DNA of 64,000 nt from IMG/VR virus record IMGVR_UViG_3300009165_000005, one strand, 5' to 3'. Of this stretch, positions 2,355 to 32,031 are shown piece by piece. The stretch comes from a virus. Taxonomy: Duplodnaviria; Heunggongvirae; Uroviricota; Caudoviricetes. The notes under the pieces are model-generated. The model saw only the letters and a list, made by a program, of their open reading frames with translations. It ran no database searches and was not told the origin of the DNA. How positions within the stretch are numbered: the stretch's first letter is position 1; each line of letters starts with the position of its first letter. The position numbers and the translations under genes are program-made.

Positions 2355-4471
2355 TTGAAGAAGCCCTCAAAAGTACTACGCCCCCTGAACTCATCTTGTT
2401 TACCTTCATTCCACTGAGAGACGGGGCGCAAGTAACCAACCACCCTTGAGTAAACCTCAGTAGCGGATGCGCATGTCGGACACTTAGTAACTTCACCAAC
2501 TAGGTATCCATGTTCTGAACAAATTGAGAAAGTGGGGGTTACGGTGAAGTAGGGTAAACGATAGTTAGTGCAGACCAATTGAACAAACTTCCTCACCAAG
2601 GCGGGATCTTTGACCCTTTCCCCCAACCAAAAGTGAAGAACCGTACCTCCCGTGTACTTAGTCTGGAACTCATCTTGATTCGACAACAACTCAAACGGAT
2701 CTGAGGTGGCCCCTATCGGAGGGAGGGAAGAGTTAGTGTAGGACTCAGGAGACTTCATCCCCGGATACTTCTTCCGATCAAGCTTGGCTAATCGATAGCT
2801 AGTACCTTCAGCAGGAGTGGCCTCCAGATTGAATAGGGACCCCGTAGCTTCCTGGTACCCCAGGATAAGACTCCGAATCCTACTCAGGATATCCAAACCT
2901 AAGTGACGACCGCGCGCTTCTAGCAGGGTGCTTCCTGTCAGATGCACTACAGCCTCATTGAGACCCACCAAACCTATCGTAGCGAAGTGGTTTGCCCAAT
3001 ACTGACCCGTTTGCTGCTTGACCGCTCGAAGGTAGAACTTGGTATAGGGGTACAGCCCCTCATCGGTTAGCTTTTCTAATACCTTTCGTTTGATGAGCAA
3101 ACTGTCACGGGCCTTTTCGAGCAAAGAGGTCAATCGGATGAAGAAATCCTCTTCGTTCGATGCCAAGTACCCCAACCTCGGAAGGTTAATCGTGACTACT
3201 CCAATAGATCCGGTTAGTGGATTTGCCCCAAACAGACCTCCTCCTCTGTACTGCAAGTCCCGGGTATCCAACCTCAACCGGCAACACATGCTTCGGGTAT
3301 CGTCTGGGGATAAGTCAGAATTCACAAAGTTAGCAAAATAAGGTATGCCATACTTAGCTGTAACCTCCCAAAGTTTGTTGTATCGTGGGTGGTTGTAGTC
3401 AAATCCCTGAGTTATGTTGTAGGTGGGAATTGGAAAGGTAAACACTCGACCCTTAGCGTCACCTTCAGACATGACTTCAAGGAACGCTTGATTGAACAGG
3501 TCCATCTCTTTCTGATAATCCCCGTAGGTACTATCCTGGAGCTCTCCACCAATAACTACAGGCTCATCTCGCATTCTACTCGGGACCTCGACATCCAAAG
3601 TAATATTGGTGAAAGGGGTCTGGAAACCAACTCTAGTTGACACATTCAAGTTGTAGATCCACTCTTGAAGAGCCTGCTTTATGGCAGGAAAATCTAGGTG
3701 ATCTCTTGCGATAAACGGGGCCAATAGCGTATCCACTGAGGAGAACGCTTGAGCGCCGGCTGTTTCACCTTGAAGGGTATAGAAGAAGTTTGTGATCTGC
3801 CCTAGAGCAGATTTGAAGTGCTTCGGAGGAGAACTCTCAATTTTACCAGAGACTCCTCGAAACCCTTCCCTAAGTAGGTCAGACAAGTCCCACCCAACAC
3901 AATACCCGGCAAGAAGACCTAGGTCATGTATGTGGAAATCCCCATTATCCTGTAATTCCCTGATATCTTGTGGGTAGACTCTCTCAACCCAATACTTTTT
4001 GGTGATCTCCGAGAACACATAGTTGTTAAGCCCCTGCAGGCTGTATGACATATTGGCGTTCTCCCTGACCTTCCAGTCCTCTTTCATCAAGTAGGAGTCG
4101 ATCAGATTAGCACTCAGAGAGGACGTTAGCTCTCGAACGAACCTTCGCTTTTCGCGATATAGGAGGTAAGCCCGTGCCACTTTGAAGTAACCGAGACTGA
4201 ATAGCACCTCCTCCACTCTATCCTGGATCTCCTCAACTGTTACTGTTTCCTGAAGACGACCTATCACGGTCTCAACTATCCTAGACAGATCCGAAGAAGC
4301 AAGGTGGAATTCAATTGAGTTAGCAGCTTTCTGGATAGCTTCTTTGATTCTGGTGGCGGAGAACTCCTGAAGGGTTCCGTCCCTCTTGATAATGAAGCCA
4401 GGTTCGGTTTCGATAGCAGGAAGTTTCACCAAGTTCAGCATCAGACCGACTCCTTTAGGACGCAAGGTCAT
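2351..4471 (-). CDS. nrdD: anaerobic ribonucleoside-triphosphate reductase, class III
   Basis: 706 aa. N-terminal ATP-cone. C-terminal Zn ribbon CPTCAS plus a glycyl-radical motif SRVVGYLRP. Overlaps nrdG by 4 nt. Confidence 0.85.
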   Translation of the reverse strand: MTLRPKGVGLMLNLVKLPAIETEPGFIIKRDGTLQEFSATRIKEAIQKAANSIEFHLASSDLSRIVETVIGRLQETVTVEEIQDRVEEVLFSLGYFKVARAYLLYREKRRFVRELTSSLSANLIDSYLMKEDWKVRENANMSYSLQGLNNYVFSEITKKYWVERVYPQDIRELQDNGDFHIHDLGLLAGYCVGWDLSDLLREGFRGVSGKIESSPPKHFKSALGQITNFFYTLQGETAGAQAFSSVDTLLAPFIARDHLDFPAIKQALQEWIYNLNVSTRVGFQTPFTNITLDVEVPSRMRDEPVVIGGELQDSTYGDYQKEMDLFNQAFLEVMSEGDAKGRVFTFPIPTYNITQGFDYNHPRYNKLWEVTAKYGIPYFANFVNSDLSPDDTRSMCCRLRLDTRDLQYRGGGLFGANPLTGSIGVVTINLPRLGYLASNEEDFFIRLTSLLEKARDSLLIKRKVLEKLTDEGLYPYTKFYLRAVKQQTGQYWANHFATIGLVGLNEAVVHLTGSTLLEARGRHLGLDILSRIRSLILGYQEATGSLFNLEATPAEGTSYRLAKLDRKKYPGMKSPESYTNSSLPPIGATSDPFELLSNQDEFQTKYTGGTVLHFWLGERVKDPALVRKFVQLVCTNYRLPYFTVTPTFSICSEHGYLVGEVTKCPTCASATEVYSRVVGYLRPVSQWNEGKQDEFRGRSTFEGFFK

Positions 4472-5435: not shown

Positions 5436-6470
5436 TCACTCACCACAGAAGGTTGAAGCTAACGTGGTTTTTAGCTGGAATCCTAGGTTAACGTACGAGG
5501 ACTCATTGCGGTCGTTAACTATGCGTAAGCCATCCCAGAGGGTATTCCAAGTTGTGGTCTTTACGCTGGATCTCATAGAAGACAACTCTTCCTCGATGTC
5601 CCGATTAACGACCCTGGACTGGTCTACAGCCCCAACAAGTACATCATGCACTAGGAAAGTCAGGAACTTGAGAACGAGGTTGAGGTCCTTATTCACCTCG
5701 TCAATTACGGAGAATGCAGACGAAACATCACCGTTAGCGCTGGCTTCCAACATAGTAAGCGCACGATCTCTCAGCGTGAGGCGGTTAGAACCCCAGTACT
5801 TTATGGCTCGGCCTACCGAACCTTCTCCTAGGCGAGTATAGACAAGAGCTTTACCGGAGTCCTTCTCGAACTGAGAAATCCTTTGAAGTACGAAGGATTC
5901 AGGTAGCCGTCGGAAGTTCACCCTACCGCATCGAGAACGAATCGTAGGGAGCACTCGATCGAAGGACTCAGCTAGAAGAAAAAACCTAGATAGCGCTGGG
6001 GGCTCTTCGAGTTTCTTGAGGATCGCATTCGAGGCCGCTGGAGTCATCCGATCCGCCCCATCTACAATGAAGAACCGATGTGGAGCAGAAATAGGAAGCA
6101 TGATGGATCGATCTAGGATGTCCCGAATGGGCTCTACTCCTATCTCTTTCTCATCCGGTGATGAAATAGTAACCACATCAGGGTGAGTGCCATTCCTGAC
6201 CTGAATAGCCTCTGGGCTATTCTCCCCTCTCTTGGCCACCACCATCTCTAAGATGGTCTCCATCACTGAGAATCGACGCCCTGTACCCTCATCCCCAACT
6301 AGTAGCAAAGGCTTGTCTACTTGACCCGCTACAAACCGACGAAGATACCTGACAGCTTCTTCTTGGCCAACTATATCACTCAACACTTTCCACCGAAGAA
6401 GGGAGGGATAGCTCGTATTTCTTCGGATCAATCGGGTCCAAGAACACACAAACTCTGTAGTTCTGACCAC
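5436..6470 (-). CDS. AAA+ clamp-loader subunit (gamma/delta'-like) with a degenerate Walker A
   Basis: LLLVGDEGTGRR replaces the GxxGxGKT P-loop. Walker-B-like FFIVDGADRM. SRC motif TIRSRCGRV is characteristic of clamp loaders. Confidence 0.6.
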   Translation of the reverse strand: MVRTTEFVCSWTRLIRRNTSYPSLLRWKVLSDIVGQEEAVRYLRRFVAGQVDKPLLLVGDEGTGRRFSVMETILEMVVAKRGENSPEAIQVRNGTHPDVVTISSPDEKEIGVEPIRDILDRSIMLPISAPHRFFIVDGADRMTPAASNAILKKLEEPPALSRFFLLAESFDRVLPTIRSRCGRVNFRRLPESFVLQRISQFEKDSGKALVYTRLGEGSVGRAIKYWGSNRLTLRDRALTMLEASANGDVSSAFSVIDEVNKDLNLVLKFLTFLVHDVLVGAVDQSRVVNRDIEEELSSMRSSVKTTTWNTLWDGLRIVNDRNESSYVNLGFQLKTTLASTFCGE

Positions 6471-8964: not shown

Positions 8965-9351
8965 TTACTTGGGCTTCCTAGCCTCTTGAACCACTGAAGC
9001 TATCTCATCAGGATCCAAGTGCGGGGGGTCCGGTGGACCATAGGTTTTTGAATACGCTATCTCGTGAACCCGCTGTTGATTCAAATCCCCACTTCGACGA
9101 ACCCAAACCCCAGCATTTGGAACTTGGTACTTTCGATTCTCCAGCCAACCTAAAGCATCAAGAAGAACAAGCTGCGAAGTCAAACCATCCCCAGACCAAA
9201 GTTCTACTCCCCCTTGCCAGATAGACGACTCCCAAGACATGTGATCCTCAGAAGGACCAAACCGGAATACCCACCCTGGCTCCAAACGAAGGGTGACTTC
9301 ATCCTTGATTCGCTCTTCATCCCAAGTGGTGACTTCGATGTCAAGACTCAT
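8965..9351 (-). CDS. hypothetical protein (128 aa)
   Basis: Intact ORF; overlaps the next gene by 4 nt. Confidence 0.4.
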   Translation of the reverse strand: MSLDIEVTTWDEERIKDEVTLRLEPGWVFRFGPSEDHMSWESSIWQGGVELWSGDGLTSQLVLLDALGWLENRKYQVPNAGVWVRRSGDLNQQRVHEIAYSKTYGPPDPPHLDPDEIASVVQEARKPK

Positions 9352-9947
9352 ACCAAACCAAGATCCATAGCTAGATCAGTGTTTTCTGGAAAGTCCAATC
9401 TCCGCTCAGCCAAACACTCCTGAATCGTCAGATTAGGCTGCAACTTGCATTGACGATCGTAGAGCACCGTGTAGACAGCAGCTGCTAGATTGACACAATG
9501 ACGCGTGGGAATCACTACGAACCGCTGGCAATGCTGCAAGTACATCTGCGGGATAGAGCCATCCTCAGGACCAAACAAATAGAGAGCATTTTCCGGATGC
9601 TCGAACTGAGGTAGACTCTCCGAGTTTGGACGGAGTTCAACAGCCACTGGAGTTGCATCATTGAACTGGTCGAAGAGCCGATCATAATGTCGTAATTCGA
9701 CATTACGATAGCCTTTCATCCGTTCCTCACGTGGAAGACGTTTCGCCCCCTTGAGGCCAAGGCTGATCCGATCCCCGGTGAACCATACCTGCTTGGCGCC
9801 ATAACACGAAGCCGCCCGCAAAGCAGCTCCAACATTGTGTGGGAACTTAGGGTTTATGAGAGCAATAGCTGGAGTAAACCCAAGAGGCTTCGAGTTCTTC
9901 CCGTAAATCTCAGGTACCGAACTCGCTGATGTACTTTGGATCGACAT
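9348..9947 (-). CDS. SpoU/TrmH-family RNA 2'-O-methyltransferase (SPOUT)
   Basis: Three SPOUT motifs in order: NVGAALRAASCYGA, ALYLFGPEDGSIP, VVIPTRHCVNLAAAVYTVLYD. Confidence 0.7.
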   Translation of the reverse strand: MSIQSTSASSVPEIYGKNSKPLGFTPAIALINPKFPHNVGAALRAASCYGAKQVWFTGDRISLGLKGAKRLPREERMKGYRNVELRHYDRLFDQFNDATPVAVELRPNSESLPQFEHPENALYLFGPEDGSIPQMYLQHCQRFVVIPTRHCVNLAAAVYTVLYDRQCKLQPNLTIQECLAERRLDFPENTDLAMDLGLV

Positions 9948-10446
9948 AATCTGTCAACCATACACCATTACCTGTCAGATAGAACTTGATTCCATCTCGA
10001 CTCATAGCTCTTGAATCGATAACCAACAACCTTGGACTCGAACGACGCTTAGCTACAATCTCCGCAGTCTGCACATCCAGTGACATGTGAACGTGATGCC
10101 GTTGCATCTTCTTCAGGCCTTGGATCTTGATGATCGGAATGTTCTGCTTCGAAGTACCATGGTAGAGGATCTCGGGTGGAATTACCTCTTGGTAACCAAG
10201 ATCTACGGCAATAGAATGTCCCTGACGAGCCCTGATGTGACAACCATCTTCGGAGTACTCAAATCGGTTCTTATTGTTCTCCGATACGATCTGATCCAAT
10301 TCCTCTTTCCGGAGATGCAAGGCAGACAGGATAGCTGAGATAGGGGTCCATCCAGCCGCAGTGAGTGTTACGCCCGCCGAAGCTGGATCATGTCGAAGGA
10401 CCTTACTTAGAAACCTACTCTTCTTGGTCAACCACTTGGAATCCAC
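9910..10446 (-). CDS. kptA: RNA 2'-phosphotransferase Tpt1/KptA
   Basis: VLRHDPASAGVTLTAAGW N-terminal signature, HGTS motif and RRHHVHMS motif typical of the Tpt1 family. Confidence 0.75.
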   Translation of the reverse strand: MDSKWLTKKSRFLSKVLRHDPASAGVTLTAAGWTPISAILSALHLRKEELDQIVSENNKNRFEYSEDGCHIRARQGHSIAVDLGYQEVIPPEILYHGTSKQNIPIIKIQGLKKMQRHHVHMSLDVQTAEIVAKRRSSPRLLVIDSRAMSRDGIKFYLTGNGVWLTDYVDPKYISEFGT

Positions 10447-11850
10447 CTAGTCACTACCTTTCAAATTGGCAACTGGATAGAGTCGATGAGCTATCCTAGC
10501 TACTCCATTGGCCTCAAGAACTACGAGCACTTCATCCAAGTCTTTGTAACAATGCGAACATTCATCCAGAGGGGTATGAGCGTGATTTCCAACAATACCT
10601 TCAATTTTCACCCCAGCGAACTCGCGTTGGATGGACTTCATTTCCTCGTCAATCCAAAGTTGTTTGTGCTCCAGCTTCCGCTTAGCTTCCCCACGAGCCA
10701 TCTTCCTACCAGATCCATGATTGACGGAGCATGCAGTCTGATAGGCTCCAGGCTCCGCAAATAAGATTGCAGCCCCGTCCATCATTGAACCAGGGATTAA
10801 GCAGGGATGTCCAGTCGTCTCCCACTTGGTCCCGACGAGATCTGGATGGCCTGCGGGGAAGGCGCGAGTAGCTCCCTTTCGATGGACGAATCCGCGTTTG
10901 GTAGTGCCATCGGGGAGTACTAGGGTCTCCTCCTGAACTAAGTTGTGTGAGATCTCGTAGTAGACCTCGGAGTCCGCATTGAAGACCTCTTGGAGGGCCT
11001 CCTGAATTCCGTGAACGATGACATGCCGATTGGCAATGGCAAAGTTGGCCGCACTATTGTGGTACGCCCAGTATTCCTTACCGAGAGGTTCGTCGATGTA
11101 AAGCCATGAATCCTCTCGACGATTGGAGGACAAACCTCGAAGGTCAGCACCCTCATAGAAGTAGTGATTGGCCGTCTGCCAACCATACCCGCGGGAACCG
11201 CAATGGACCATGACGAATACCTCTCCAGTATCTCGGTCGGCCTGCAGTTCAAGAAAGTGATTTCCCCCGCCCACCGAACCCATTTGAGGGATTACTTTGG
11301 AGTAGGCTCTCTCGATCTTCGTGAAGTCAATTCCTTGAGGGACAGGGATGTATTGACGTTCGCAAAGGTCAGCAGGAACCCCAAGAGCCTTGGCTCCATA
11401 TCGGAGGATCTCTTGAGCTTCATTGTTGTCAAAGACGGGCATGAGTTTGGGACGAACTGAACCCACTCCGGTCGCAATTCGCTTCTCAACCTCTTGAATC
11501 CAAATCTCGCGCTTGTGCCAACTCCTGACCGCATTTGCCGAAAGATTAACCTTAAGGCACAAAACCCCGCAAGACACGTCGTACCCTGATCCAGCCTGAA
11601 TGAGAGTGTTTTCGGTGACAAGGACGCACCCGATAGGAACCCCGAAACCAGAGTGTCCATCAGGCATCAAGTAAGCGCCGATAATTCCATCGTAAGATGC
11701 ACCGTTGGCAAGCTGACTCCAGAGACTCTCTTCGCTTGCAGCGTAAAGCTCATCGGAGAAAAAGGCGTGGGCTTCCACCTTCATTGATCCGCAACGCGGA
11801 AGAACGTAGTGGGCGTCACCGACTTTCTGGGCCTGATATTTGAAGGACAT
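10447..11850 (-). CDS. rtcB: RNA-splicing ligase RtcB (3'-phosphate/5'-hydroxyl RNA ligase)
   Basis: 467 aa with RtcB metal-binding motifs (HCGSRGYGWQ, GGGNHFLELQ, SVNHGSGR). Confidence 0.85.
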   Translation of the reverse strand: MSFKYQAQKVGDAHYVLPRCGSMKVEAHAFFSDELYAASEESLWSQLANGASYDGIIGAYLMPDGHSGFGVPIGCVLVTENTLIQAGSGYDVSCGVLCLKVNLSANAVRSWHKREIWIQEVEKRIATGVGSVRPKLMPVFDNNEAQEILRYGAKALGVPADLCERQYIPVPQGIDFTKIERAYSKVIPQMGSVGGGNHFLELQADRDTGEVFVMVHCGSRGYGWQTANHYFYEGADLRGLSSNRREDSWLYIDEPLGKEYWAYHNSAANFAIANRHVIVHGIQEALQEVFNADSEVYYEISHNLVQEETLVLPDGTTKRGFVHRKGATRAFPAGHPDLVGTKWETTGHPCLIPGSMMDGAAILFAEPGAYQTACSVNHGSGRKMARGEAKRKLEHKQLWIDEEMKSIQREFAGVKIEGIVGNHAHTPLDECSHCYKDLDEVLVVLEANGVARIAHRLYPVANLKGSD

Positions 11851-11868
11851 TTTGCTTGATTACACCGG

Positions 11869-12447
11869 TTAGGGGTTCAAATTCTCCTGAAGAATTCGAC
11901 AGAAGAGGGCGCCTTGTTCAACAGCGTCATCAACTGCCACATGCGTATGCTTCGGGAGTCCTTGGAACCATCGTTTTGGCATGTTCTTTTTGGTTGTCTG
12001 ACGGAATTCGATACCAAGCTTAGCGCAAGCGTATGACTTGATGTCCAGAGCCGAGAAAGAGAAGGGACTTTCACCTACGAACTTGATCAGATACCAGTAA
12101 GTAAATGCGAAGTCAAAAGTAGCTGGGTACCCAACGAAGACAGGGCGTCCTGGTTGCTGATTGACCCAGTCGACATAAGAGGTCATAGCCTCCTTTGGTG
12201 GCTTCTGGTCCTTACGACACTCCTCCCACTCCTTGGGTCTCTTGGACCACCACTCCATGGTATCAGACTCACCTTGAGCTCCTTGGAGGGTCTCCAGGTT
12301 GACTGAGAAAGTGCTCACCAGCGTCCCACTAGGCAGGTAAGCGGCGGCTCCGAGGCTGAGCATTGAATGAGGTCCCGGAATAGGACCATCCGACTCGATG
12401 TCGGTCGATATGTATACTTCGTTATTCATAGGACCGAAGTACACCAA
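11869..12447 (-). CDS. DEDDh 3'-5' exonuclease (DnaQ/RNase T-like)
   Basis: Exo I motif DIESDG near the N-terminus. C-terminal H...D ([10 protein letters not shown]). Confidence 0.6.
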
Positions 12448-12498: not shown

Positions 12499-14241
12499 CT
12501 ACCACTGATTGGATCTGCTCTTAGTGAGAGAAGATTTCATCACTGGTGCTTCAGGTTTCGGAGCTATCGGTGGCGAGTTGAGATCAACCTCTCCACCAAC
12601 GGAAGGCTCTTCCATAAAACTGCGCATCACCTGCTCCTGAGCAGCATTGCTGAAATCAATGTTGGCACCGTAGAGGACTTCCTGATCCGAGTCAGCCAAT
12701 GCCGAAACAGCTCGAGCCCGGTTCAATCCTCGATTCAAACCCATACGACTACCAGCGCTCTGAGCATAACGCTGATGACTTGCATACTTCGAACGAAGGT
12801 TATTGGATGCAGATGCAACACCAATTAAGCCTCGAGCTTCGAAGTCATGTCCAAGACTATCGAAGCCCATGACTGCAGCATTGAAGTCACCACGCTTAGC
12901 GGCAGCCTCGGCCTGATTCTGAACTTGAAGCAACTGAGCTCGAGCAACCAGTTCATCCACCTCTTTGGTGGGTGCTTTCTGTTCTTCCCCAGACTTCACG
13001 AACTGAACCTTGGCATTCCCTTCTACAGATTCAAGTTTCATTTTCCCGTCGGACCCGAGGATTTGATAGGACAACTTAGCATGAACAGCGTTGACCTGGC
13101 GAGGTCCAGGATGCTTCTGAGATGCAAGCTTGGCCTTAATGACAACGTCGATGGTTTCCTCAGATAGGATGTGAGGAATCTTGACTTGAGCCTCACCAGT
13201 TATGATCTCCTCGACATCAAAGTCGGAGAGTACCTCCACCAGCTGGTTGCCATCCCTTGGAGTCAACTCAATGATCAAGTCCTGAGCATAAGTGCTCAGA
13301 AGACCCCCAAGCTCCTTGCCGAAGGCCCCGAGAGCCGAGTCTGGGTCCTGAATGAAAGCGTAGTTCCCAGCTCCAGCTAAAGACAATGCATTCAGCAGCT
13401 CCTGGTTGGCATCAGGACCGTAACCAAAGGCTGAAACACTTACTCGACCTCGTTGCTGAGTGATGATACTCGAAATCCCCTCAACCGTAGTCACTCCCAT
13501 GTTAGGTTGCCCATCGGTGAAGAGAATGATCCTGGTGATGGTGGAATCCCCAAGATCCAAACCGGAAACAACCTCAAGCCCCTTGAGGAGACCTCCCGAG
13601 AGGCAGGTATTCCCATTGACTCTATATCCAGCTACAACCTTCTTGGCCCGGATCTTGGCATCAGGGGTCATCTTCTCCGCAGGGAAGTCAATACTTGAGT
13701 CCGTAGCAAAACTGACCAAACCAAAGGTGTCTTCCGCCGTAAGATGATCGATCAGCTTGGTCAGGGACCTCTTCGTGTAGTCCATCTTCATCCCAATCAT
13801 CGACCCTGATCGGTCAACTGCTGGGATAATGCACAGTGGCGGTCGGTGGGTTTGCCAATCGCTCTTGGGCGCAGTTACGGATACGACCAAGTGAAGGTCG
13901 GTGGCCTGATCAAAACGAACTTTTTCAAACGTGAACCGTGGATTTAATAGCATTGGTGCATTCTCGCTAATCAAGAACAGTGTCGGGATGCGGAGACTGG
14001 ACCAATCTCCCAAATCCAAACAATTCCAGTTGAGTCCTAGATTTTGCCCAAGCTCATAGAGCGCGGCTACGTCAGTATGAGATCCAAGCGTTAGCGCGGT
14101 CTCGGTCCCCCCTAATACACCACTTGATGGCTCCGGGAAAACCAAAAAGGGCCGCCTGACTTCAGACGGCCCTTCATCAGCTACGCCACCGGTCAAGCTA
14201 CTAGGTAGTAACCAGTCCCATGTTGTTGGGCTCGAGACCAA
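12499..14241 (-). CDS. von Willebrand factor type A (vWA) domain protein
   Basis: MIDAS motif AVDRSGSMIG...TDGQ in a 580-aa protein with a long divergent C-terminus. Confidence 0.6.
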   Translation of the reverse strand: MVSSPTTWDWLLPSSLTGGVADEGPSEVRRPFLVFPEPSSGVLGGTETALTLGSHTDVAALYELGQNLGLNWNCLDLGDWSSLRIPTLFLISENAPMLLNPRFTFEKVRFDQATDLHLVVSVTAPKSDWQTHRPPLCIIPAVDRSGSMIGMKMDYTKRSLTKLIDHLTAEDTFGLVSFATDSSIDFPAEKMTPDAKIRAKKVVAGYRVNGNTCLSGGLLKGLEVVSGLDLGDSTITRIILFTDGQPNMGVTTVEGISSIITQQRGRVSVSAFGYGPDANQELLNALSLAGAGNYAFIQDPDSALGAFGKELGGLLSTYAQDLIIELTPRDGNQLVEVLSDFDVEEIITGEAQVKIPHILSEETIDVVIKAKLASQKHPGPRQVNAVHAKLSYQILGSDGKMKLESVEGNAKVQFVKSGEEQKAPTKEVDELVARAQLLQVQNQAEAAAKRGDFNAAVMGFDSLGHDFEARGLIGVASASNNLRSKYASHQRYAQSAGSRMGLNRGLNRARAVSALADSDQEVLYGANIDFSNAAQEQVMRSFMEEPSVGGEVDLNSPPIAPKPEAPVMKSSLTKSRSNQW

Positions 14242-20574: not shown

Positions 20575-21186
20575 TTACACCGAGTGACCATAGCGAAGTG
20601 CTACTTTTCCAGCAATGAACTCATCTTCTGTGCAGGGTGACTTACGTTCTGAAACCTTAACTTCATGAGGTGTGAAGGAAACCCCAGTTTCTTCTACCGC
20701 AGCCTGATAGGACGGAATCATTTCAGACCAGTCTTCCCAAAGGTCCACCATCCTAATTGTGGGGTGTTCCAGAAGGATTCTCTGGATCTGTTCGACCTTG
20801 AACTCCTTGGTATCCACGCGGTCTGACAGGTGCACCTCGTCGAAGTTCAAGCCTTTCTGCCCCAACAGCGCATGAATCCGATCCGTGAAAACTTCCCTTG
20901 GACGCCCCGTAAGAAGGACCACGTAACTATACTCGTCCTTCATTTCCTCTCGAGCTGCCTTGACAGTTGACTCGATCCACCAGTCTGATGGTACCTTCGG
21001 AAGACAAGGAGGGATCATCGACTCAATCTGGAACCACCAACCATCCTTGTCTTCCCACCAATCTGGCGGATGTGGGCTGCGGAACAGCGTCCCGTCGAAG
21101 TCGAATACACAGAGCCGACGGATCACCTTAGATTGCTCAAAGATCGAATACAAGTTTGACAAGATCGAATGGCCATTTCCAACCAC
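20575..21186 (-). CDS. HAD-superfamily phosphatase (possible polynucleotide 3'-phosphatase)
   Basis: HAD motif I CVFDFDGTLF (DxDGT). Size and context resemble PNK-phosphatase-like phage proteins. Confidence 0.55.
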   Translation of the reverse strand: MVGNGHSILSNLYSIFEQSKVIRRLCVFDFDGTLFRSPHPPDWWEDKDGWWFQIESMIPPCLPKVPSDWWIESTVKAAREEMKDEYSYVVLLTGRPREVFTDRIHALLGQKGLNFDEVHLSDRVDTKEFKVEQIQRILLEHPTIRMVDLWEDWSEMIPSYQAAVEETGVSFTPHEVKVSERKSPCTEDEFIAGKVALRYGHSV

Positions 21187-21941: not shown

Positions 21942-22132
21942 CGCAGCTAGCGGGATTTGAACCCGCGATCTACTCCGTGACAGGGAGCTGGGGACGGCCG
22001 GACTCCCCTATAACTGCATAACTTGCGGAGACAAGAAACGTAAAGACGTTTGGGTCAGCTGCTCTGCCAACTGAGCTATACCTTGGCTTTTTGAAGGCCA
22101 AGGCAATGGGACTCGAACCCATGACCTGCTGA
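21942..22132 (-). other. composite tRNA-like locus: orphan 3' half followed by its matching 5' half, then a third T-arm/acceptor element
   Basis: On the minus strand: ...A TCAGC AGGTC ATGGG TTCGAGT CCCAT TGCCTTG G, then linker CCTTCAAAAAGC, then CAAGGTA TA GCTC AGTTGGCA GAGC A GCTGA. The acceptor strands pair 7/7 (CAAGGTA/TGCCTTG) and the anticodon-stem strands pair 5/5 (GCTGA/TCAGC), but the order is 3' half then 5' half. Further downstream a T-arm GCGGGTTCAAATCCCGC plus TAGCTGC pairs with GCAGCTG embedded in the D-arm region. Confidence 0.5.
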
Positions 22133-22167
22133 TTAGTTGTAGTCCTTACTGCATTCTCCGCAAAAAC

Positions 22168-25364: not shown

Positions 25365-26102
25365 TCACTCACCTTTCCCATTGGTCGGGGTGGTGAGGAT
25401 CGAACTCACCTGATGTCCTGATCCCAAATCAGGCGGCCCACCTTGAGCCCACACCCCGAAAGTCCATGATTCTTGAAGCAAGTCCATCCAAGCCTCAAGT
25501 CGACACCTAAGGTAAGTATCACTAACTCGAACTGTTAGAACCCCATACTTGGACCTCCAAACCCTACCATTCAAGTTACCACTATTCGACTTTCTCTGAA
25601 GATGAATCAAGTCAGGAGAAACTTGAAGAAGGCTCGACCAAAACTGAACTAGATCAAAGATATTTTGGTCGATATGAGTCTGGATAGGGAAGCTTAAAGC
25701 ACGATCTGGGTTAGCCAATCTCTTTAACCAATAGTAAGCTAATTGAACTAACTTTGGATTTGAGTTTGAAATACTCACAGTGTTTTTCGTGCGACGAAAA
25801 CCTTCTGTCAAATACAACACCACAAAGTCACGAAAAGTAGGGGAGAGTAACAACTCAGAAAACTCTGAGACCCCTTTCTGATAAGCTTTCTCTCTGAGTT
25901 CCTTGTAACGAAGTGAATTCTTGGCCGCTGCTCCTTTACCTAAGTTGTACCCAGATCTACTCTTGCGCTGAAGGGGGATATTCTTAATCCAGTGATAGAC
26001 TGTACCCTTACCTAAAGATACTCGCTCACATATTTCGTCAATTGAGAGACCTGCCAGACGGAGCTTCCGAGCAAGAACCCTAAGATGATCGTACTTCTTC
26101 AT
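25365..26102 (-). CDS. HTH DNA-binding protein; C-terminus overlaps tRNA-Pro
   Basis: N-terminal HTH LSIDEICERVSLGKGTVYHWIKN. The last ~30 codons are the reverse complement of tRNA-Pro(TGG), so the true 3' end is uncertain. Confidence 0.4.
   Translation of the reverse strand: MKKYDHLRVLARKLRLAGLSIDEICERVSLGKGTVYHWIKNIPLQRKSRSGYNLGKGAAAKNSLRYKELREKAYQKGVSEFSELLLSPTFRDFVVLYLTEGFRRTKNTVSISNSNPKLVQLAYYWLKRLANPDRALSFPIQTHIDQNIFDLVQFWSSLLQVSPDLIHLQRKSNSGNLNGRVWRSKYGVLTVRVSDTYLRCRLEAWMDLLQESWTFGVWAQGGPPDLGSGHQVSSILTTPTNGKGE
25382..25458 (-). tRNA. tRNA-Pro (TGG), CCA encoded
   Basis: Acceptor CGGGGTG/CACCCCG; anticodon stem CCTGA/TCAGG; loop TTTGGGA; T-loop TTCGATC. Confidence 0.75.
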
Positions 26103-26228
26103 TTCAAACCCTCAACCAGGTCGTTCATACACCAGTTGAAGATTGTTTTAACAATGAATCGAGACAAGGATTGAGAAGATATAAGCCTTTCGGCTCCGCC
26201 GTGTCTGCCATTCCACCACAAACGAGTT

Positions 26229-26308
26229 TCCTCACTAGGAGGGACTCGAACCCTCACGTCCTTTCGGACAGCGGATTTTCAATTGTAATCTTCTACAGCA
26301 TTCTCGAC
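26229..26308 (-). other. tRNA-like fragment (T-arm plus variable-arm hairpin, no matching 5' acceptor or D-arm)
   Basis: GAGGGTTCGAGTCCCTC T-arm preceded by a GTCCGAAAGGAC GNRA hairpin. No complement to the 3' acceptor CTAGTGA upstream. Confidence 0.35.
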
Positions 26309-26407
26309 TGGTACCATCATCGGGGCTCGAACCCGAACTCCATAGGAACAATGCCCTGGGGTACGTATCCCCAACACTGCGAGTCTTCCAATTTCCTCCA
26401 TGATGGT
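26309..26407 (-). tRNA. atypical 99-nt tRNA with a 21-nt structured insertion at the anticodon-loop position, CCA encoded
   Basis: Perfect acceptor ACCATCA/TGATGGT; T-arm TCGGGTTCGAGCCCCGA; 3' ACCA. Anticodon stem CAGTG/CATTG encloses TTGGGGATACGTACCCCAGGG instead of a 7-nt loop. Anticodon unresolved. Confidence 0.5.
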
Positions 26408-26409
26408 AT

Positions 26410-26495
26410 TGGTGCACGAAAGAGGACTCGAACCTCCACGGGATCTCTCCCACTATCACCTCAAAATAGCGCGTCTGCCCTTCCGCCACTCGTGC
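26410..26495 (-). tRNA. tRNA-Leu (GAG), class II, CCA encoded; paralog of the Leu tRNA at 15669
   Basis: Acceptor GCACGAG/TTCGTGC; anticodon stem CTATT/GATAG; loop TTGAGGT; long variable arm. Confidence 0.8.
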
Positions 26496-26529: not shown

Positions 26530-27375
26530 ATGGATCGGACCCTTCAAGCCTTCGAGGACACCCTCATCACGCGCAACCTAGTAGCCCGAGTAGTTGAGGC
26601 AACTGAGTTTCCTACTGAGGAAGCTCGCAAGAAGTACTTGCAGAGTCATCCGAAAGCTAACCCAGCGAACCACACGGTTCGCAAGAACAAGACCCCTACT
26701 CAGTTCCGAAGAACTGACAAGACCCGTTGGGACGACGTACTCAAGAACACCAAGGGACTGAAGGAGCTTGGTGAGAAAGCCACCAAGGGCGATGAGGAAG
26801 CTAAGGCTGAGGTCTCAAAGAGGTACACGGCTCTCGTGGACCATGGCGAGTCGATGGCAGATGATGCCAAGTCCCTCACCAAGAAGCTCAAGGGAAACGC
26901 CAAACTTAGCGACAAGGCCAAAGAACACTTGGGGGAGCTCGAGAAGGCAATCAAGAAGTGGGACTCGATCTCCCACGCAGCCCAGAAGGCCAAGGGCCGC
27001 AACACTGAAGCTCAACTCCAACATGCCAACGAGGTCATGACAGCCGCTAGTACTGTCAGAACTCTAACCCACTGGTTCCAAGACCAGGCTGTTCAGGACA
27101 AAGCCTTGAAACGATCCTCTGAGGAATGGAAGACCGATGGTGAAACCATCGTTACCGCCAAGTACATGATAGATACTCGCAAGTTCTACGACTTGTTTGA
27201 CGATATTGAAGAGCATAGTTCCGCTATGGCAACAGCTCTAGGAAACTATGTACGAAATCCTGATAAGTTGAAGCCCCAATTGGACAAGCTTCTCTTATTC
27301 TCTAACCAAATCAAGATCGATCTCCAAATCCTCGGGAAGTTGGTTGCCAGACTGAAAGCTGGCGAGAACCCCTAG
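26530..27375 (+). CDS. paralog family member A (conserved N-terminal EFPTEEARKKYLQSHPKANPANH motif, Lys/Glu-rich tail)
   Basis: Shares its N-terminal motif with the ORFs at 29736-30251 and 31414-31797. Confidence 0.55.
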   Translation: MDRTLQAFEDTLITRNLVARVVEATEFPTEEARKKYLQSHPKANPANHTVRKNKTPTQFRRTDKTRWDDVLKNTKGLKELGEKATKGDEEAKAEVSKRYTALVDHGESMADDAKSLTKKLKGNAKLSDKAKEHLGELEKAIKKWDSISHAAQKAKGRNTEAQLQHANEVMTAASTVRTLTHWFQDQAVQDKALKRSSEEWKTDGETIVTAKYMIDTRKFYDLFDDIEEHSSAMATALGNYVRNPDKLKPQLDKLLLFSNQIKIDLQILGKLVARLKAGENP

Positions 27376-27775
27376 TAGGTTCCAGATTCCACCATTGACA
27401 AGAAATCGTGCGAGACGTCTATTGTTTCCGGTAATGTAGTCCACGCACAGCATTCAGTGGCGGAATCTGGTATTCGGAGCCATACACTAACTTGCTTTAG
27501 ATTGCAAGAGAAAAGTTTGGCCCTGACAAGGGATGGTAATGAGGGGCTTATGGCCTACGCATTGATGTGTCCAGAGATCCCTGGACTTGCATCCGCTCGT
27601 CCCGCGCCTTAGGGTCAGTTACTACCCACTGGAGTTCCTTACTAGGGAGCTCGAACTGGCGCCATCGCATAATCCCTCGCGAGATCAGTCGCTACTTTAG
27701 GACCGTTATTGTACTCACTACCGGCATTCAGGACCGATTGGACAATACACCGGAGATCACGTTAAGTCAAGTTGA

Positions 27776-27849
27776 TCAGAGTAAGAGGACTTGAACCTCC
27801 AATCTCGTGATCCCGAACCACGCGCTCTACCAAACTGAGCTACACCCTG
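27776..27849 (-). tRNA. tRNA-Pro (CGG)
   Basis: Acceptor CAGGGTG/TACTCTG; anticodon stem CGTGG/TCACG; loop TTCGGGA. Confidence 0.75.
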
Positions 27850-27888
27850 ATGAACCACGAAGACAAGAATTCGAAAGAGGAACGTACG

Positions 27889-27960
27889 GCGTCCTGACCA
27901 CTAGACGATCCCCGCATAGGTTGGAGCGGGGAGAGGGATTCGAACCCACGTGTCCGGCTT
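27889..27960 (-). other. orphan tRNA 3' half (T-arm, acceptor, CCA), a 6-nt linker, then an orphan 5' half with a perfectly complementary acceptor
   Basis: Minus strand: GTGGG TTCGAAT CCCTC TCCCCGC T CCA, linker ACCTAT, then GCGGGGA TC GTCT AGTGGTCA GGAC G. Acceptor strands GCGGGGA/TCCCCGC are 7/7 complementary but in 3'-then-5' order. No full tRNA can be assembled on either side. Confidence 0.5.
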
Positions 27961-27996
27961 GGATGGCAATGTACTCCTTCAGGCATTCTTCGTGAT

Positions 27997-30978: not shown

Positions 30979-31061
30979 CGGAAGGGAAGGGATTCGAACC
31001 CCCAGAGCTGTTACACTCGATTGTTTTCAGGACAATGCCCCTCACCAATAGGAGCCCTTCC
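30979..31061 (-). tRNA. tRNA-Ser (TGA), class II
   Basis: Acceptor GGAAGGG/CCCTTCC; anticodon stem ATTGT/ACAAT; loop CCTGAAA; long variable arm. Confidence 0.65.
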
Positions 31062-31947: not shown

Positions 31948-32031
31948 TGGCTCCAGGAGTAGGATTCGAACCCACGATGTATTTCTACGGCACGTTAACA
32001 GCGTGCTGCCTTTCCGCTCGGCCATCCTGGA
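31948..32031 (-). tRNA. class II tRNA (Tyr-like body) with a GTT (Asn) anticodon, CCA encoded
   Basis: Perfect acceptor TCCAGGA/TCCTGGA; D-arm GCC GAGCGGAAA GGC; anticodon stem GCACG/CGTGC; loop CTGTTAA; variable arm CGTAGAAATACATC with a GAAA tetraloop. Confidence 0.7.

What the first reader, a model, noticed from the sequence alone, without database searches (positions are those of the whole stretch)
26309..26407. 99-nt tRNA with a 21-nt structured insertion in place of the anticodon loop
Acceptor (ACCATCA/TGATGGT), T-arm and encoded CCA are canonical. The anticodon stem CAGTG/CATTG encloses TTGGGGATACGTACCCCAGGG (itself a TGGGG/CCCCA hairpin) instead of a 7-nt loop. This resembles an archaeal or eukaryal-type anticodon-loop intron more than any bacterial class II tRNA, though the junctions are not a canonical bulge-helix-bulge. 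The co-encoded RtcB ligase would be the appropriate joining enzyme, but no splicing endonuclease is evident in this window.
Basis: partly seen in the sequence, partly recalled or inferred. Interest (0 to 1): 0.6.

Follow-up and report, generated by a model that had tools for sequence, protein, structure and literature searches.

The report
Hairpin-interrupted phage tRNA-Leu gene copy
This 99-base gene in a giant phage's tRNA array is a spare copy of a leucine tRNA whose anticodon is split by a 14-base hairpin-forming insertion; it most likely yields a tRNA-shaped RNA that cannot read codons, not an archaeal-style spliced intron.

Summary
The sequence is as described: a 7-bp acceptor stem, D-arm, T-arm, encoded CCA, and a 5-bp anticodon stem enclosing 21 nt that form a UGGGG/CCCCA hairpin. 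It is identical in several independent assemblies. ARAGORN's label, tRNA-Pro(GGG), is an artefact. Related phage genomes show that the element is a class II tRNA-Leu(GAG) paralogue. An uninterrupted 91-nt relative (L025) has the loop UUGAGGG, and the element has GGGAUACGUACCCC inserted exactly between G34 and A35. Four phage genomes carry the interrupted copy, always beside an intact tRNA-Leu(GAG) and directly 5' of a YrlA-type Y RNA; seven related genomes lack it. No possible excision has bulge-helix-bulge geometry. Fourteen nt cannot self-splice, and none of about 70 window ORFs resembles a splicing endonuclease, although RtcB, Tpt1 and Ro60 are encoded. Divergence patterns suggest a young cassette exchanged between lineages, not long-term selection. 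Best reading: a redundant, interrupted tRNA-Leu gene that is co-transcribed and processed like a tRNA and is probably still leucylatable, but cannot decode. A new kind of protein-dependent mini-intron remains possible (about 10-15%). Interest is moderate to low.

The parts
26309..26407 (-). The element: a 99-nt interrupted tRNA-Leu(GAG) paralogue ('type 2'), which ARAGORN calls tRNA-Pro(GGG)
26401..26407 (-). Acceptor stem 5' strand ACCAUCA (RNA positions 1-7). It pairs with 26313-26319 (UGAUGGU). A73 is at 26312 and the encoded CCA at 26309-26311.
   Evidence: Pairs 1-72 and 4-69 differ from L025/L021 by double compensatory changes.
26381..26398 (-). Class II-type D-arm: GAG / GAAAUUGGAAGA / CUC (3-bp stem, with A14, A15, G18G19)
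   Evidence: The D-stem is identical to that of L025's type-2 tRNA-Leu.
26375..26379 (-). Outer anticodon stem 5' strand CAGUG. It pairs with 26349-26353 (CAUUG).
   Evidence: Pair probability 0.91-0.93. G-C in L025/L021 becomes G.U in the window and A-U in L028, and C-G becomes U-A.
26358..26371 (-). The 14-nt insertion GGGAUACGUACCCC, placed uniquely between anticodon nucleotides G34 and A35. Together with U33, G34 and A35 it forms the UGGGG/CCCCA hairpin with loop AUACGUA.
   Evidence: Comparison with the uninterrupted loop UUGAGGG of L025. The insert occurs only in this element in the window and in all fetched loci.
26354..26374 (-). The 21 nt between the two strands of the anticodon stem: 7 ancestral loop nucleotides (UUG...AGGG) plus the 14 inserted nucleotides
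26337..26348 (-). Shortened variable region UUCCUAUGGAGU, with a UCC/GGA mini-hairpin. The loop is CAUGU in L009, L027 and L028.
26320..26336 (-). T-arm UCGGG-UUCGAGC-CCCGA. The stem is identical in the intact type-2 tRNA-Leu genes of L025 and L021.
26410..26495 (-). Intact 'type 1' tRNA-Leu(GAG), 2 nt upstream of the element. This is the functional copy at this locus.
   Evidence: ARAGORN; Rfam tRNA 40.1 bits
26159..26308 (-). Divergent YrlA-type Y RNA that starts at the base after the element's CCA. It has closing stems, a V hairpin, a T-arm, a capped acceptor-like hairpin, a D-arm and a GCCGAAAGGC hairpin.
   Evidence: MFE fold; 9 genomes, with 13 of 42 pairs showing double compensatory changes; motifs shared with the Rfam YrlA consensus and with PMC4201824
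25365..26102 (-). 245-aa ORF with an N-terminal HTH, present only in the window and L009, lying between the Y RNA and tRNA-Pro(TGG). It is a lineage-specific insertion and is independent of the element, since L027 and L028 have the element without it.
10447..11850 (-). RtcB RNA ligase. It is flanked by Tpt1/KptA (9910-10446), a SpoU methylase (9348-9947) and an Rv2179c-like 3'-5' exoribonuclease (11869-12447).
   Evidence: Pfam
44023..45609 (-). Ro60 orthologue (TROVE + vWA_Ro60), the expected protein partner of the Y RNAs
   Evidence: Pfam

Best explanation
The element is a second, redundant copy of a class II tRNA-Leu(GAG) gene. Its anticodon was split at the DNA level by a 14-bp quasi-palindromic insertion (GGGATACGTACCCC, between G34 and A35). 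It lies inside a tightly packed transcription unit: intact tRNA-Leu(GAG), then the element, then a YrlA-type Y RNA, then tRNA-Pro(TGG). It is therefore necessarily transcribed. The RNA folds as an ordinary tRNA L-shape, except that the anticodon arm is a closed, extended rod. That rod consists of the 5-bp outer stem, a small internal loop, a 5-6-bp hairpin that buries U33, G34 and A35, and a 7-nt loop. Because the acceptor stem, T-arm and D-arm are intact, the element should still be cut by RNase P and the 3' processing enzymes. This releases the upstream tRNA-Leu and defines the 5' end of the Y RNA that abuts its CCA. It keeps the LeuRS determinants, so it can probably still be leucylated. 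With no accessible anticodon it cannot decode, and decoding of CUY codons is left to the intact copy 2 nt upstream. What is shown: the sequence, the dominant fold, the derivation from tRNA-Leu(GAG), the exact insertion site, the patchy distribution, the cassette-like divergence, and the lack of BHB geometry. What is inferred: transcription, processing, leucylation and the lack of decoding.
For: 1. Homology. L025 carries, at the same position directly 5' of the Y RNA, a normal 91-nt tRNA-Leu(GAG) with the same D-stem, the same T-stem, a near-identical anticodon stem and the loop UUGAGGG. The element equals this with 14 nt inserted after G34. Identity with the insert excluded is 77%, which matches the 75% between the two uninterrupted type-2 genes. 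Rfam scores the L025 gene as a tRNA (38.2 bits) but finds none of the interrupted copies at E<=1.
2. Redundancy. In all four genomes with the interrupted copy (window, L009, L027, L028), an intact type-1 tRNA-Leu(GAG) sits 2-3 nt upstream. Where type 2 is intact (L021, L025), type 1 is absent or truncated. Five other lineages have type 1 only.
3. Fold. The extended-arm cloverleaf scores -29.5 kcal/mol against -18.3 for ARAGORN's fold, and dominates the ensemble. All substitutions among the four copies are unpaired or pair-preserving, except A1.C72 in L009.
4. Evolutionary rate. Within the close clade the element changes as fast as or faster than the neighbouring functional RNAs (2.9-5.9% against 0-4%). 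Changes such as A1.C72 in L009 and CCA to CCU in L027 suggest relaxed constraint.
5. DNA-level events at this locus. An HNH homing endonuclease sits at the anticodon-loop breakpoint of the other Leu copy in L025, and there are clean presence/absence cassette polymorphisms.
6. Processing context. In all 11 genomes the Y RNA starts 0-2 nt after the 3' end of a tRNA-shaped gene.
7. Leucylation. For LeuRS in E. coli, A73 and the D/T-loop tertiary contacts specify leucylation, while the anticodon arm is dispensable (PMC9976931). The element keeps A73, A14, A15, G18G19 and U54-U55-C56-A58.
Against: Apart from the insertion, the gene shows no degradation. All helices and tertiary-contact nucleotides are intact in four genomes, and relative to uninterrupted relatives it shows three double compensatory changes. 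Against the distant L028 lineage it is the best-conserved RNA gene in the region: 93% identity against 53-84% for ordinary tRNAs, with P about 1e-4 at the flank divergence. That could reflect a function, including function as a spliced tRNA, and not cassette exchange. The phage has an unusually rich RNA healing and sealing set (RtcB, Tpt1, an exoribonuclease, a HAD 'Swiss-army-knife' protein, Ro60) that could in principle serve a cut-and-rejoin pathway. There are no expression data. Only 64 kb of a genome that probably exceeds 130 kb was examined for nucleases.
Confidence: 0.6

Rival explanations
1. A protein-dependent mini-intron. The 14 nt are excised after transcription by an unidentified phage or host endoribonuclease that leaves 2',3'-cyclic phosphate and 5'-OH ends. 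The halves are then joined by the phage RtcB, restoring a working tRNA-Leu(GAG) with the loop UUGAGGG.
For: Precise removal of the 14 nt recreates exactly the anticodon loop of the uninterrupted homologue. The rest of the tRNA is fully intact in four genomes and is highly similar across distant lineages. RtcB and Tpt1 are encoded 15 kb away.
Against: The two junctions lie inside a continuous helix and are offset by one base pair. For the restoring excision the BHB test gives 1 of 4 central pairs and no closing pair, and no excision that leaves a 7-nt loop fits a BHB. No EndA-type or other candidate nuclease domain appears in about 70 window ORFs. Bacterial tRNA introns described so far are self-splicing group I or II introns (PMC4033280). 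The interrupted copy occurs only where an intact Leu(GAG) is adjacent. Its within-clade substitution rate is not lower than that of its neighbours. RtcB, Tpt1 and Ro60 are explained equally well as a tRNA-repair and Y RNA module.
Confidence: 0.13
2. A tRNA mimic that has acquired a new function. The closed, extended anticodon arm would be the functional feature. Possible roles are an uncleavable decoy for host nucleases that target tRNA-Leu anticodon loops, a leucyl carrier that cannot enter translation, or a partner or substrate mimic for the Ro60/Y RNA/RtcB machinery.
For: It shares the non-decoding tRNA-shaped architecture of the best explanation. It lies directly beside a Y RNA, in an array that holds at least three Y-RNA-like tRNA derivatives plus Ro60. 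Similarity between lineages is high. Non-translating pseudo-tRNAs with cellular roles are known (PMC3399842, listed).
Against: Seven of eleven related genomes lack it, including close relatives of carriers (L029 against L028). The hairpin loop sequence is not conserved: AUACGUA becomes AUACAUA in L028. There is no Ro60-binding motif (GNCGAA) in it. Within-clade changes include an acceptor mismatch and loss of the encoded CCA. Nothing links it specifically to any nuclease or partner.
Confidence: 0.2
3. ARAGORN's reading: an uninterrupted class II-like tRNA-Pro(GGG) with the 7-nt anticodon loop UUGGGGA, a weak anticodon stem and a 26-nt variable arm.
For: ARAGORN calls it without invoking an intron. 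UUGGGGA matches the loop pattern UU-NGG-GA of the array's genuine tRNA-Pro genes. The window has no other tRNA-Pro(GGG).
Against: That fold has only 3 anticodon-stem pairs plus 2 mismatches, scores -18.3 against -29.5 kcal/mol, and has pair probabilities of 0.00. ARAGORN does not call the L009, L027 or L028 copies, and the indel in L009 breaks the proposed variable stem. The L028 change G31 to A would break its G-C pair but improves the rival stem. The body is Leu-type, not Pro-type. L009 has a normal tRNA-Pro(GGG) as well. Rfam gives no tRNA hit.
Confidence: 0.02
4. A silent pseudogene with no RNA-level role at all. The sequence would be a repair scar in a dead gene copy that simply has not yet decayed.
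For: The evidence is the same redundancy, patchy distribution and relaxed within-clade evolution as in the best explanation.
Against: It has no promoter of its own to lose. It lies between two functional RNAs, with 2-nt and 0-nt spacers, so it must be transcribed and must be removed from the precursor. All tRNA processing determinants are intact.
Confidence: 0.05

Closest known systems
Bacterial-type class II tRNA-Leu(GAG), specifically the uninterrupted 'type 2' genes at the same locus in related phages (L025 3314-3404, L021 4864-4951)
   Same: It has a 7-bp acceptor stem, A73, a 3-bp D-stem GAG/CUC with a Leu-type D-loop, a T-stem UCGGG/CCCGA, the anticodon stem CAG(C/U)G, and the ancestral loop nucleotides UUG...AGGG. 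It occupies the same position directly 5' of the Y RNA.
   Different: It has 14 nt inserted between G34 and A35, and the variable arm is shortened from 17 to 12-14 nt. It is not recognised by the Rfam tRNA model.
Archaeal/eukaryal tRNA introns removed by a splicing endonuclease at a bulge-helix-bulge motif and joined by RtcB
   Same: It is a short intervening sequence in the anticodon loop that pairs with anticodon nucleotides, and an RtcB ligase is encoded by the same genome.
   Different: It is at position 34/35 and has no BHB or bulge-helix-loop geometry for any productive excision. No endonuclease was found. The setting is bacterial-virus: a tmRNA, bacterial-type tRNAs and YrlA.
Group I introns in bacterial and plastid tRNA genes, for example cyanobacterial tRNA-Leu(UAA)
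   Same: It interrupts the anticodon loop of a tRNA-Leu gene in a bacterial-type genome. The classical tRNA-Leu(UAA) intron also lies within the anticodon; this last point is from my own knowledge and was not checked here.
   Different: Group I introns need a catalytic core of about 100 nt (PMC4033280). This insert is 14 nt and cannot self-splice.
Non-translating pseudo-tRNAs and tRNA-like RNAs, such as Bacillus cereus tRNA-Other (PMC3399842), the tRNA-like domain of YrlA (PMC4201824) and the tRNA-like domain of tmRNA
   Same: It has a tRNA-shaped body that is expected to interact with tRNA-processing enzymes but has no usable anticodon. In YrlA and tmRNA, too, the anticodon arm is replaced by a longer helix.
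   Different: Here the normal 5'/3' acceptor end with CCA is kept and the extended arm is closed by a loop. No function, partner or broad conservation has been shown.

Membership tests
Archaeal/eukaryal endonuclease-spliced tRNA intron | Bulge-helix-bulge motif (two 3-nt bulges separated by 4 bp), or a relaxed bulge-helix-loop motif, at the exon-intron junctions | tested here: not met
   All eight 14-nt excisions that leave a 7-nt loop were enumerated. The best has 3 of 4 central pairs and no inner helix. The excision that restores the ancestral loop has 1 of 4 central pairs and no closing pair.
Archaeal/eukaryal endonuclease-spliced tRNA intron | A tRNA splicing endonuclease (EndA/Sen family) encoded by the genome or host | tested here: inconclusive
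   No such Pfam domain occurs in about 70 ORFs of the 64-kb window. The rest of the phage genome and the host could not be examined.
Archaeal/eukaryal endonuclease-spliced tRNA intron | An RtcB-type (3'-P/5'-OH) or Trl1-type ligase is available | tested here: met
   RtcB at 10447-11850 (Pfam 1e-84); Tpt1/KptA at 9910-10446 (5e-46).
Archaeal/eukaryal endonuclease-spliced tRNA intron | A spliced mature tRNA is produced | not testable with these tools
   There are no RNA data. No uninterrupted DNA allele of this lineage was found in IMG/VR or GTDB.
Self-splicing group I intron in a bacterial tRNA gene | A catalytic core of about 100 nt with about 10 helical elements | tested here: not met
   The insert is 14 nt. 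The core requirement is from PMC4033280. Rfam gave no intron hit.
Class II tRNA-Leu | Homology to bona fide tRNA-Leu, with A73, a class II D-arm and a variable arm | tested here: met
   77% identity, with the insert excluded, to L025's tRNA-Leu(GAG), which Rfam scores at 38.2 bits. The D-stem and T-stem are identical. A73 is present and the variable region is 12-14 nt with a 3-bp stem.
Class II tRNA-Leu | A 7-nt anticodon loop presenting a Leu anticodon | tested here: not met
   Twenty-one nt lie between the stem strands. U33, G34 and A35 are paired inside the hairpin with probabilities of 0.79-0.97.
Class II tRNA-Leu | Recognition by the general tRNA covariance model (Rfam RF00005, 29 bits or more) | tested here: not met
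   There was no hit at E<=10 in the window region, at E<=0.5 in the whole window, or at E<=1 in L027 and L028.
tRNA-Pro(GGG) (ARAGORN's call) | A stable 5-bp anticodon stem closing the loop UUGGGGA, on a Pro-type class I body | tested here: not met
   The stem has 3 pairs plus 2 mismatches. The fold scores -18.3 against -29.5 kcal/mol, with pair probability 0.00. The body matches Leu genes, not the array's Pro genes.
YrlA-type Y RNA (the neighbouring RNA at 26159-26308, not the element itself) | Closing stem formed by the 5' and 3' ends; internal tRNA-like module in the order V, T-arm, capped acceptor-like stem, D-arm; conserved 5' CGA(G)AAUGC/GNCGAA-type motif; a Ro60 gene in the genome | tested here: met
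   The consensus fold over 9 genomes has 13 of 42 covarying pairs. Motifs are shared with the Rfam YrlA consensus and with PMC4201824. Ro60 is at 44023-45609. However, the Rfam YrlA model itself does not hit this copy, and Ro60 is 18 kb away, not within 4 kb.

The most novel reading that the evidence does not exclude
The 14 nt are a genuine, precisely excised mini-intron at position 34/35 of a bacteriophage tRNA-Leu. They would be cut by a still-unknown, non-BHB endoribonuclease of phage or host and resealed by the phage's RtcB. This would be the first protein-dependent tRNA splicing system in the bacterial or phage world. One possible role is to keep the anticodon hidden from host anticodon nucleases until the tRNA is needed.
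Probability: 0.1. Interest if true: 0.85.

Novelty: new variant of a known kind. Interest (0 to 1): 0.35.

Why it matters
The main result is a correction. An automatic annotation, tRNA-Pro(GGG), and an attractive hypothesis, an archaeal-type intron in a phage, both fail once related genomes are compared. The gene is a leucine tRNA copy with its anticodon split by a small insertion. It also shows how giant-phage tRNA arrays evolve. Cassettes are gained, lost and exchanged between lineages, homing endonucleases cut within tRNA genes, and tRNA genes are converted into tRNA-shaped non-coding RNAs; several Y RNAs sit in the same array next to Ro60 and RNA-repair enzymes. If the minority reading were true, and the insert is spliced out by a protein enzyme and RtcB, it would overturn the view that bacteria and their viruses have only self-splicing tRNA introns. 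That reading is cheap to test by sequencing small RNAs.

Tried and rejected
1. ARAGORN's fold with a long variable arm (tRNA-Pro). I rejected it on energy, on ensemble probability, and because the L009 and L028 substitutions break it.
2. The hairpin loop AUACGUA acting as a displaced anticodon loop (U33-like U, 'anticodon' ACG). I rejected it because L028 has ACA, so the 'anticodon' is not conserved, and because the arm would be about 6 bp too long.
3. A kissing-loop dimer through the UACGUA palindrome. I rejected it because the palindrome is lost in L028.
4. The insert as a dispersed repeat or miniature mobile hairpin. I rejected it because the insert occurs only in this element in the window and in all 28 loci held at the time of the search.
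5. Long-term purifying selection as the reason for 93% identity to L028. This is not supported, because within the close clade the element diverges as fast as or faster than its neighbours. Recent cassette exchange fits better.
6. The element as a second Y RNA. It has no GNCGAA-type motif, and its ends form an acceptor stem with CCA, not a Ro60-binding stem.
7. The vWA protein at 12499-14241 as the Ro60 partner. It hits only generic vWA models; the real Ro60 is at 44023-45609.
8. Searches that found nothing: GenBank phages by blastn; IMG/VR for four element-derived patterns and for the excised allele; GTDB genomes. The first related loci fetched through the flanking protein or the HAD protein from IMG/VR had no syntenic array. 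MAFFT misplaced the 14-nt gap, so I counted the pairs on a hand-made alignment.
Full report
OBSERVATION. The window is part of a giant-phage-like genome. It has 38 tRNA genes and a tmRNA, all on the minus strand. The minus strand of 26309-26407 reads ACCAUCAUGGAGGAAAUUGGAAGACUCGCAGUGUUGGGGAUACGUACCCCAGGGCAUUGUUCCUAUGGAGUUCGGGUUCGAGCCCCGAUGAUGGUACCA. The same sequence, with its flanks, is 100% identical in four other assemblies from different samples, so it is not an assembly artefact. It has a 3-bp D-stem with a Leu-type D-loop (UG-GAG-GAAAUUGGAAGA-CUC-G) and a 12-nt variable region with a 3-bp mini-hairpin, like the array's Leu and Tyr genes.

WHICH FOLD. ARAGORN calls the element tRNA-Pro(GGG) without an intron. 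It closes UUGGGGA with only three pairs and places the rest in a 26-nt 'variable arm'. Rfam's tRNA model finds nothing, even at E<=10. Evaluated directly, the cloverleaf with the extended anticodon arm scores -29.5 kcal/mol and ARAGORN's fold scores -18.3. In the ensemble the outer stem has pair probabilities of 0.91-0.93 and the inner hairpin 0.79-0.97, while ARAGORN's stems have 0.00. The inner hairpin alone is only modestly beyond chance given its composition: 145 of 5000 shuffles fold as well. Sequence variants in other genomes support the extended-arm fold, as described below.

WHAT IT IS DERIVED FROM. GenBank phages and IMG/VR contain nothing similar. The protein encoded next to the element (26530-27375) has 21 homologues, and their contigs gave eleven distinct syntenic loci. 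In L025 and L026 the gene directly 5' of the same downstream RNA is a normal 91-nt class II tRNA-Leu(GAG): GCCGUCG UG GAG GAACUUUGGCAGA CUC G CAGCG UUGAGGG CGCUG UGCCCAUAAUAGGGCGU UCGGG UUCGAAU CCCGA UGACGGC A CCA. Rfam accepts it as a tRNA at 38.2 bits. The element has the same D-stem, the same T-stem and a near-identical anticodon stem, and its loop nucleotides are UUG...AGGG. It therefore equals this tRNA with GGGAUACGUACCCC inserted between G34 and A35, and that placement is unique. With the insert excluded, identity is 77%, matching the 75% between the two uninterrupted 'type-2' genes of L025 and L021. Helix differences are mostly compensated: G1-C72 to A-U, G4-C69 to A-U, C30-G40 to U-A, and a series G-C, then G.U, then A-U in the outer anticodon stem. 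'Pro(GGG)' is simply the first seven nucleotides of the enlarged loop.

IS IT AN INTRON? I enumerated all eight 14-nt excisions that leave a 7-nt loop. The one that restores the ancestral loop (UUGAGGG) has its two junctions inside a continuous helix, offset by one base pair, with 1 of 4 central BHB pairs and no closing pair. The best BHB-like case has 3 of 4 central pairs and no inner helix, and it would put a Pro anticodon on a Leu body. The archaeal endonuclease requires two 3-nt bulges separated by 4 bp. Bacterial tRNA introns described so far are self-splicing group I or II introns with a core of about 100 nt (PMC4033280). A 14-nt insert meets neither requirement. About 70 window ORFs were scanned with Pfam. 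RtcB, Tpt1/KptA, a SpoU methylase, an Rv2179c-like exoribonuclease, a HAD 'Swiss-army-knife RNA repair' protein and Ro60 are present, but there is no splicing endonuclease or other obvious candidate. The rest of the genome could not be examined.

DISTRIBUTION AND DYNAMICS. The interrupted copy occurs in the window, L009, L027 and L028. In each it lies 2-3 nt downstream of an intact 'type-1' tRNA-Leu(GAG) and 0-2 nt upstream of the downstream RNA. L021 and L025 have an intact type-2 gene there instead; in L025 type 1 is reduced to a 5' fragment. L019/L020, L022, L023/L024, L029 and L030 have type 1 only. Each genome therefore keeps one intact Leu(GAG) at this locus, and the insertion is seen only where the copy is redundant. 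Among the four interrupted copies, the 31-nt arm differs only in L028: G.U becomes A-U in the outer stem, and G becomes A in the hairpin loop, which destroys the UACGUA palindrome. Other changes are G26 to A, U5-A68 to U.G, an indel in the variable loop, T-loop positions 59 and 60, U72 to C in L009 (which creates an A1.C72 mismatch), and CCA to CCU in L027. Against L028 the element is 93% identical, while ordinary orthologous tRNAs are 53-84% identical and the flanks about 83%. Within the close clade, however, the element diverges by 2.9-5.9%, against 0-2.4% for the adjacent tRNA-Leu and 1.3-4.0% for the downstream RNA. A sequence that is no better conserved than its neighbours among close relatives, yet far better conserved between distant ones, is best explained by recent exchange of the cassette between lineages, not by long-standing purifying selection. 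The locus is clearly prone to DNA-level events. L029 is close to L028 in its flanks but lacks the element. A 245-aa HTH ORF is inserted only in the window and L009. In L025 an HNH homing endonuclease (PHROG 10822, 1e-45) sits exactly at the anticodon-loop breakpoint of the type-1 copy. The insert plus its flanks, TGGGG-A-TACGTA-CCCCA, is a near-perfect DNA palindrome that occurs nowhere else. That is compatible with a repair or template-switch scar, although its origin is not shown.

CONTEXT. The RNA that starts right after the element's CCA (26159-26308) is a divergent YrlA-type Y RNA. Its 5' and 3' ends form closing stems. Inside them lie a V hairpin, a T-arm (GAGGG-UUCGAGU-CCCUC), an acceptor-like hairpin capped by a tetraloop, a Leu-type D-arm and a GCCGAAAGGC hairpin. 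Over nine genomes, 13 of 42 pairs show double compensatory changes, and every pair of the capped hairpin covaries. It shares the landmarks of the Rfam YrlA consensus, namely 5' GA(G)AAUGC, YUAY and 3' CUUGUCNCG (PMC4201824), although the Rfam model itself does not hit it. That model does hit two other places in the array: 22022-22161 at 50.5 bits with E = 2e-8, and 27854-27993 at 29 bits. A Ro60 orthologue is encoded at 44023-45609. In all eleven genomes this Y RNA begins 0-2 nt after the 3' end of a tRNA-shaped gene. RtcB therefore has an obvious alternative role, as part of a Ro60/Y RNA/tRNA-repair module of the kind known from Salmonella and mycobacteriophages.

MOST LIKELY MECHANISM (confidence about 0.6). 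The element is a redundant tRNA-Leu(GAG) copy that was disabled for decoding by a 14-bp insertion in its anticodon. It has no promoter of its own and lies between two functional RNAs, so I infer that it is transcribed with them. It folds as an L-shaped tRNA whose anticodon arm is a closed, extended helix. I infer that RNase P and the 3'-end machinery cut it out, thereby releasing tRNA-Leu and setting the 5' end of the Y RNA. It keeps A73, A14, A15, G18G19 and the T-loop nucleotides that specify leucylation in E. coli-type systems, where the anticodon arm is dispensable (PMC9976931). It can therefore probably be charged with leucine, but it cannot read a codon. Whether this RNA has any further use is unknown.

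RIVALS. The first rival is a true mini-intron removed by an unknown nuclease and sealed by RtcB (about 0.13). It is attractive because precise excision recreates the ancestral loop and the gene is otherwise intact. Against it stand the junction geometry, the absence of a nuclease, the restriction of the element to redundant copies, and the unremarkable within-clade rate. The second is a tRNA mimic with a new function, such as a nuclease decoy, a leucyl carrier or a Ro60/RtcB partner (about 0.2). It is compatible with the architecture, but nothing specific supports it, and seven of eleven relatives lack the element. The third is ARAGORN's tRNA-Pro (about 0.02). The fourth is a pseudogene with no RNA-level role (about 0.05).

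COMPARISON AND NOVELTY. By descent the element is a class II tRNA-Leu. It fails the functional criteria of that family, since it lacks a 7-nt loop and is not recognised by the covariance model. It fails the defining structural test for endonuclease-spliced introns, and it fails the size requirement for group I introns. It works most like the known non-translating pseudo-tRNAs and tRNA-like domains such as YrlA and tmRNA, in which the anticodon arm is replaced by a longer helix. It differs from them in keeping the normal acceptor end. I rate it a new variant of a known kind: a disrupted or pseudo-tRNA in a mosaic phage tRNA array. Interest is moderate to low (0.35). The main value lies in the corrected identity and in the cheap, decisive RNA-seq test for the improbable splicing alternative, which would be important if true.

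Noticed in passing
window 26159-26308 (-): There is a divergent YrlA-type Y RNA directly after the element. Its tRNA-like module is Leu-like (class II D-arm, V hairpin) and its acceptor-like hairpin is capped by a tetraloop. Over 9 phage genomes, 13 of 42 pairs show double compensatory changes. Rfam's YrlA model does not detect it.
   Followed up: yes
window 22022-22161 (-) and 27854-27993 (-): Two further Y-RNA-like genes lie inside the tRNA array. Rfam YrlA matches them over the full model length, at 50.5 bits (E = 2e-8) and 29.1 bits (E = 0.03), both below the gathering score of 69. L025 has an equivalent hit at 6030-6169.
   Followed up: partly
window 44023-45609 (-); 46343-46416 (-): A Ro60 orthologue (TROVE + vWA_Ro60) is encoded here. 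About 730 nt upstream on the same strand is a suppressor-type tRNA with anticodon CUA, which ARAGORN labels 'Pyl' and Rfam scores as a tRNA at 55.6 bits. This hints at TAG read-through or recoding in this phage.
   Followed up: no
window 9348-12447 (-) and 20575-21186 (-): There is a compact RNA-repair gene cluster: SpoU-family methylase, Tpt1/KptA 2'-phosphotransferase, RtcB ligase and an Rv2179c-like 3'-5' exoribonuclease. A HAD_SAK_1 'Swiss-army-knife RNA repair' protein lies within the tRNA array. Tpt1 next to RtcB is notable, because RtcB ligation leaves no 2'-phosphate.
   Followed up: partly
L025 3367-3912 (-), with 3937-3966: An HNH homing endonuclease ORF (PHROG 10822, 1e-45) follows a 5' fragment of the type-1 tRNA-Leu(GAG) that breaks off at the anticodon loop. 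An intact type-2 tRNA-Leu follows the ORF. This shows endonuclease-driven remodelling of the locus.
   Followed up: partly
window 25365-26102 (-): A 245-aa ORF with an N-terminal HTH lies between the Y RNA and tRNA-Pro(TGG). It is present only in the window and L009, has no family match beyond a weak HTH_23 hit, and its 3' end overlaps the tRNA-Pro(TGG) call at 25382-25458. It may be a mobile or homing-type gene.
   Followed up: partly
window 31948-32031 (-): tRNA-Asn(GUU) is 84 nt long, with a long variable region on a class II-like body, whereas L009's tRNA-Asn is 75 nt. This may be an anticodon switch on a class II scaffold.
   Followed up: no
window 30980-31061 (-): Here lies an 82-nt class II tRNA-like sequence that ARAGORN does not call; the Rfam tRNA-Sec model scores it at 42.1 bits against a gathering score of 47. 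L019 has tRNA-Ser(UGA) at the equivalent position.
   Followed up: no
L019 7444-7514 (-): ARAGORN reports a 'tRNA-???' with a two-base anticodon (cc), that is, an aberrant anticodon loop, between two tRNA-Glu genes. This is another irregular tRNA in a related array.
   Followed up: no
window 27774-27850 versus L009 6338-6412: At the same array position the window has tRNA-Pro(CGG), while L009 has an unrelated tRNA-Pro(GGG) sequence. The similarity between the two genomes resumes exactly at the gene boundary, so this is a cassette replacement between genomes that are 92-97% identical.
   Followed up: partly
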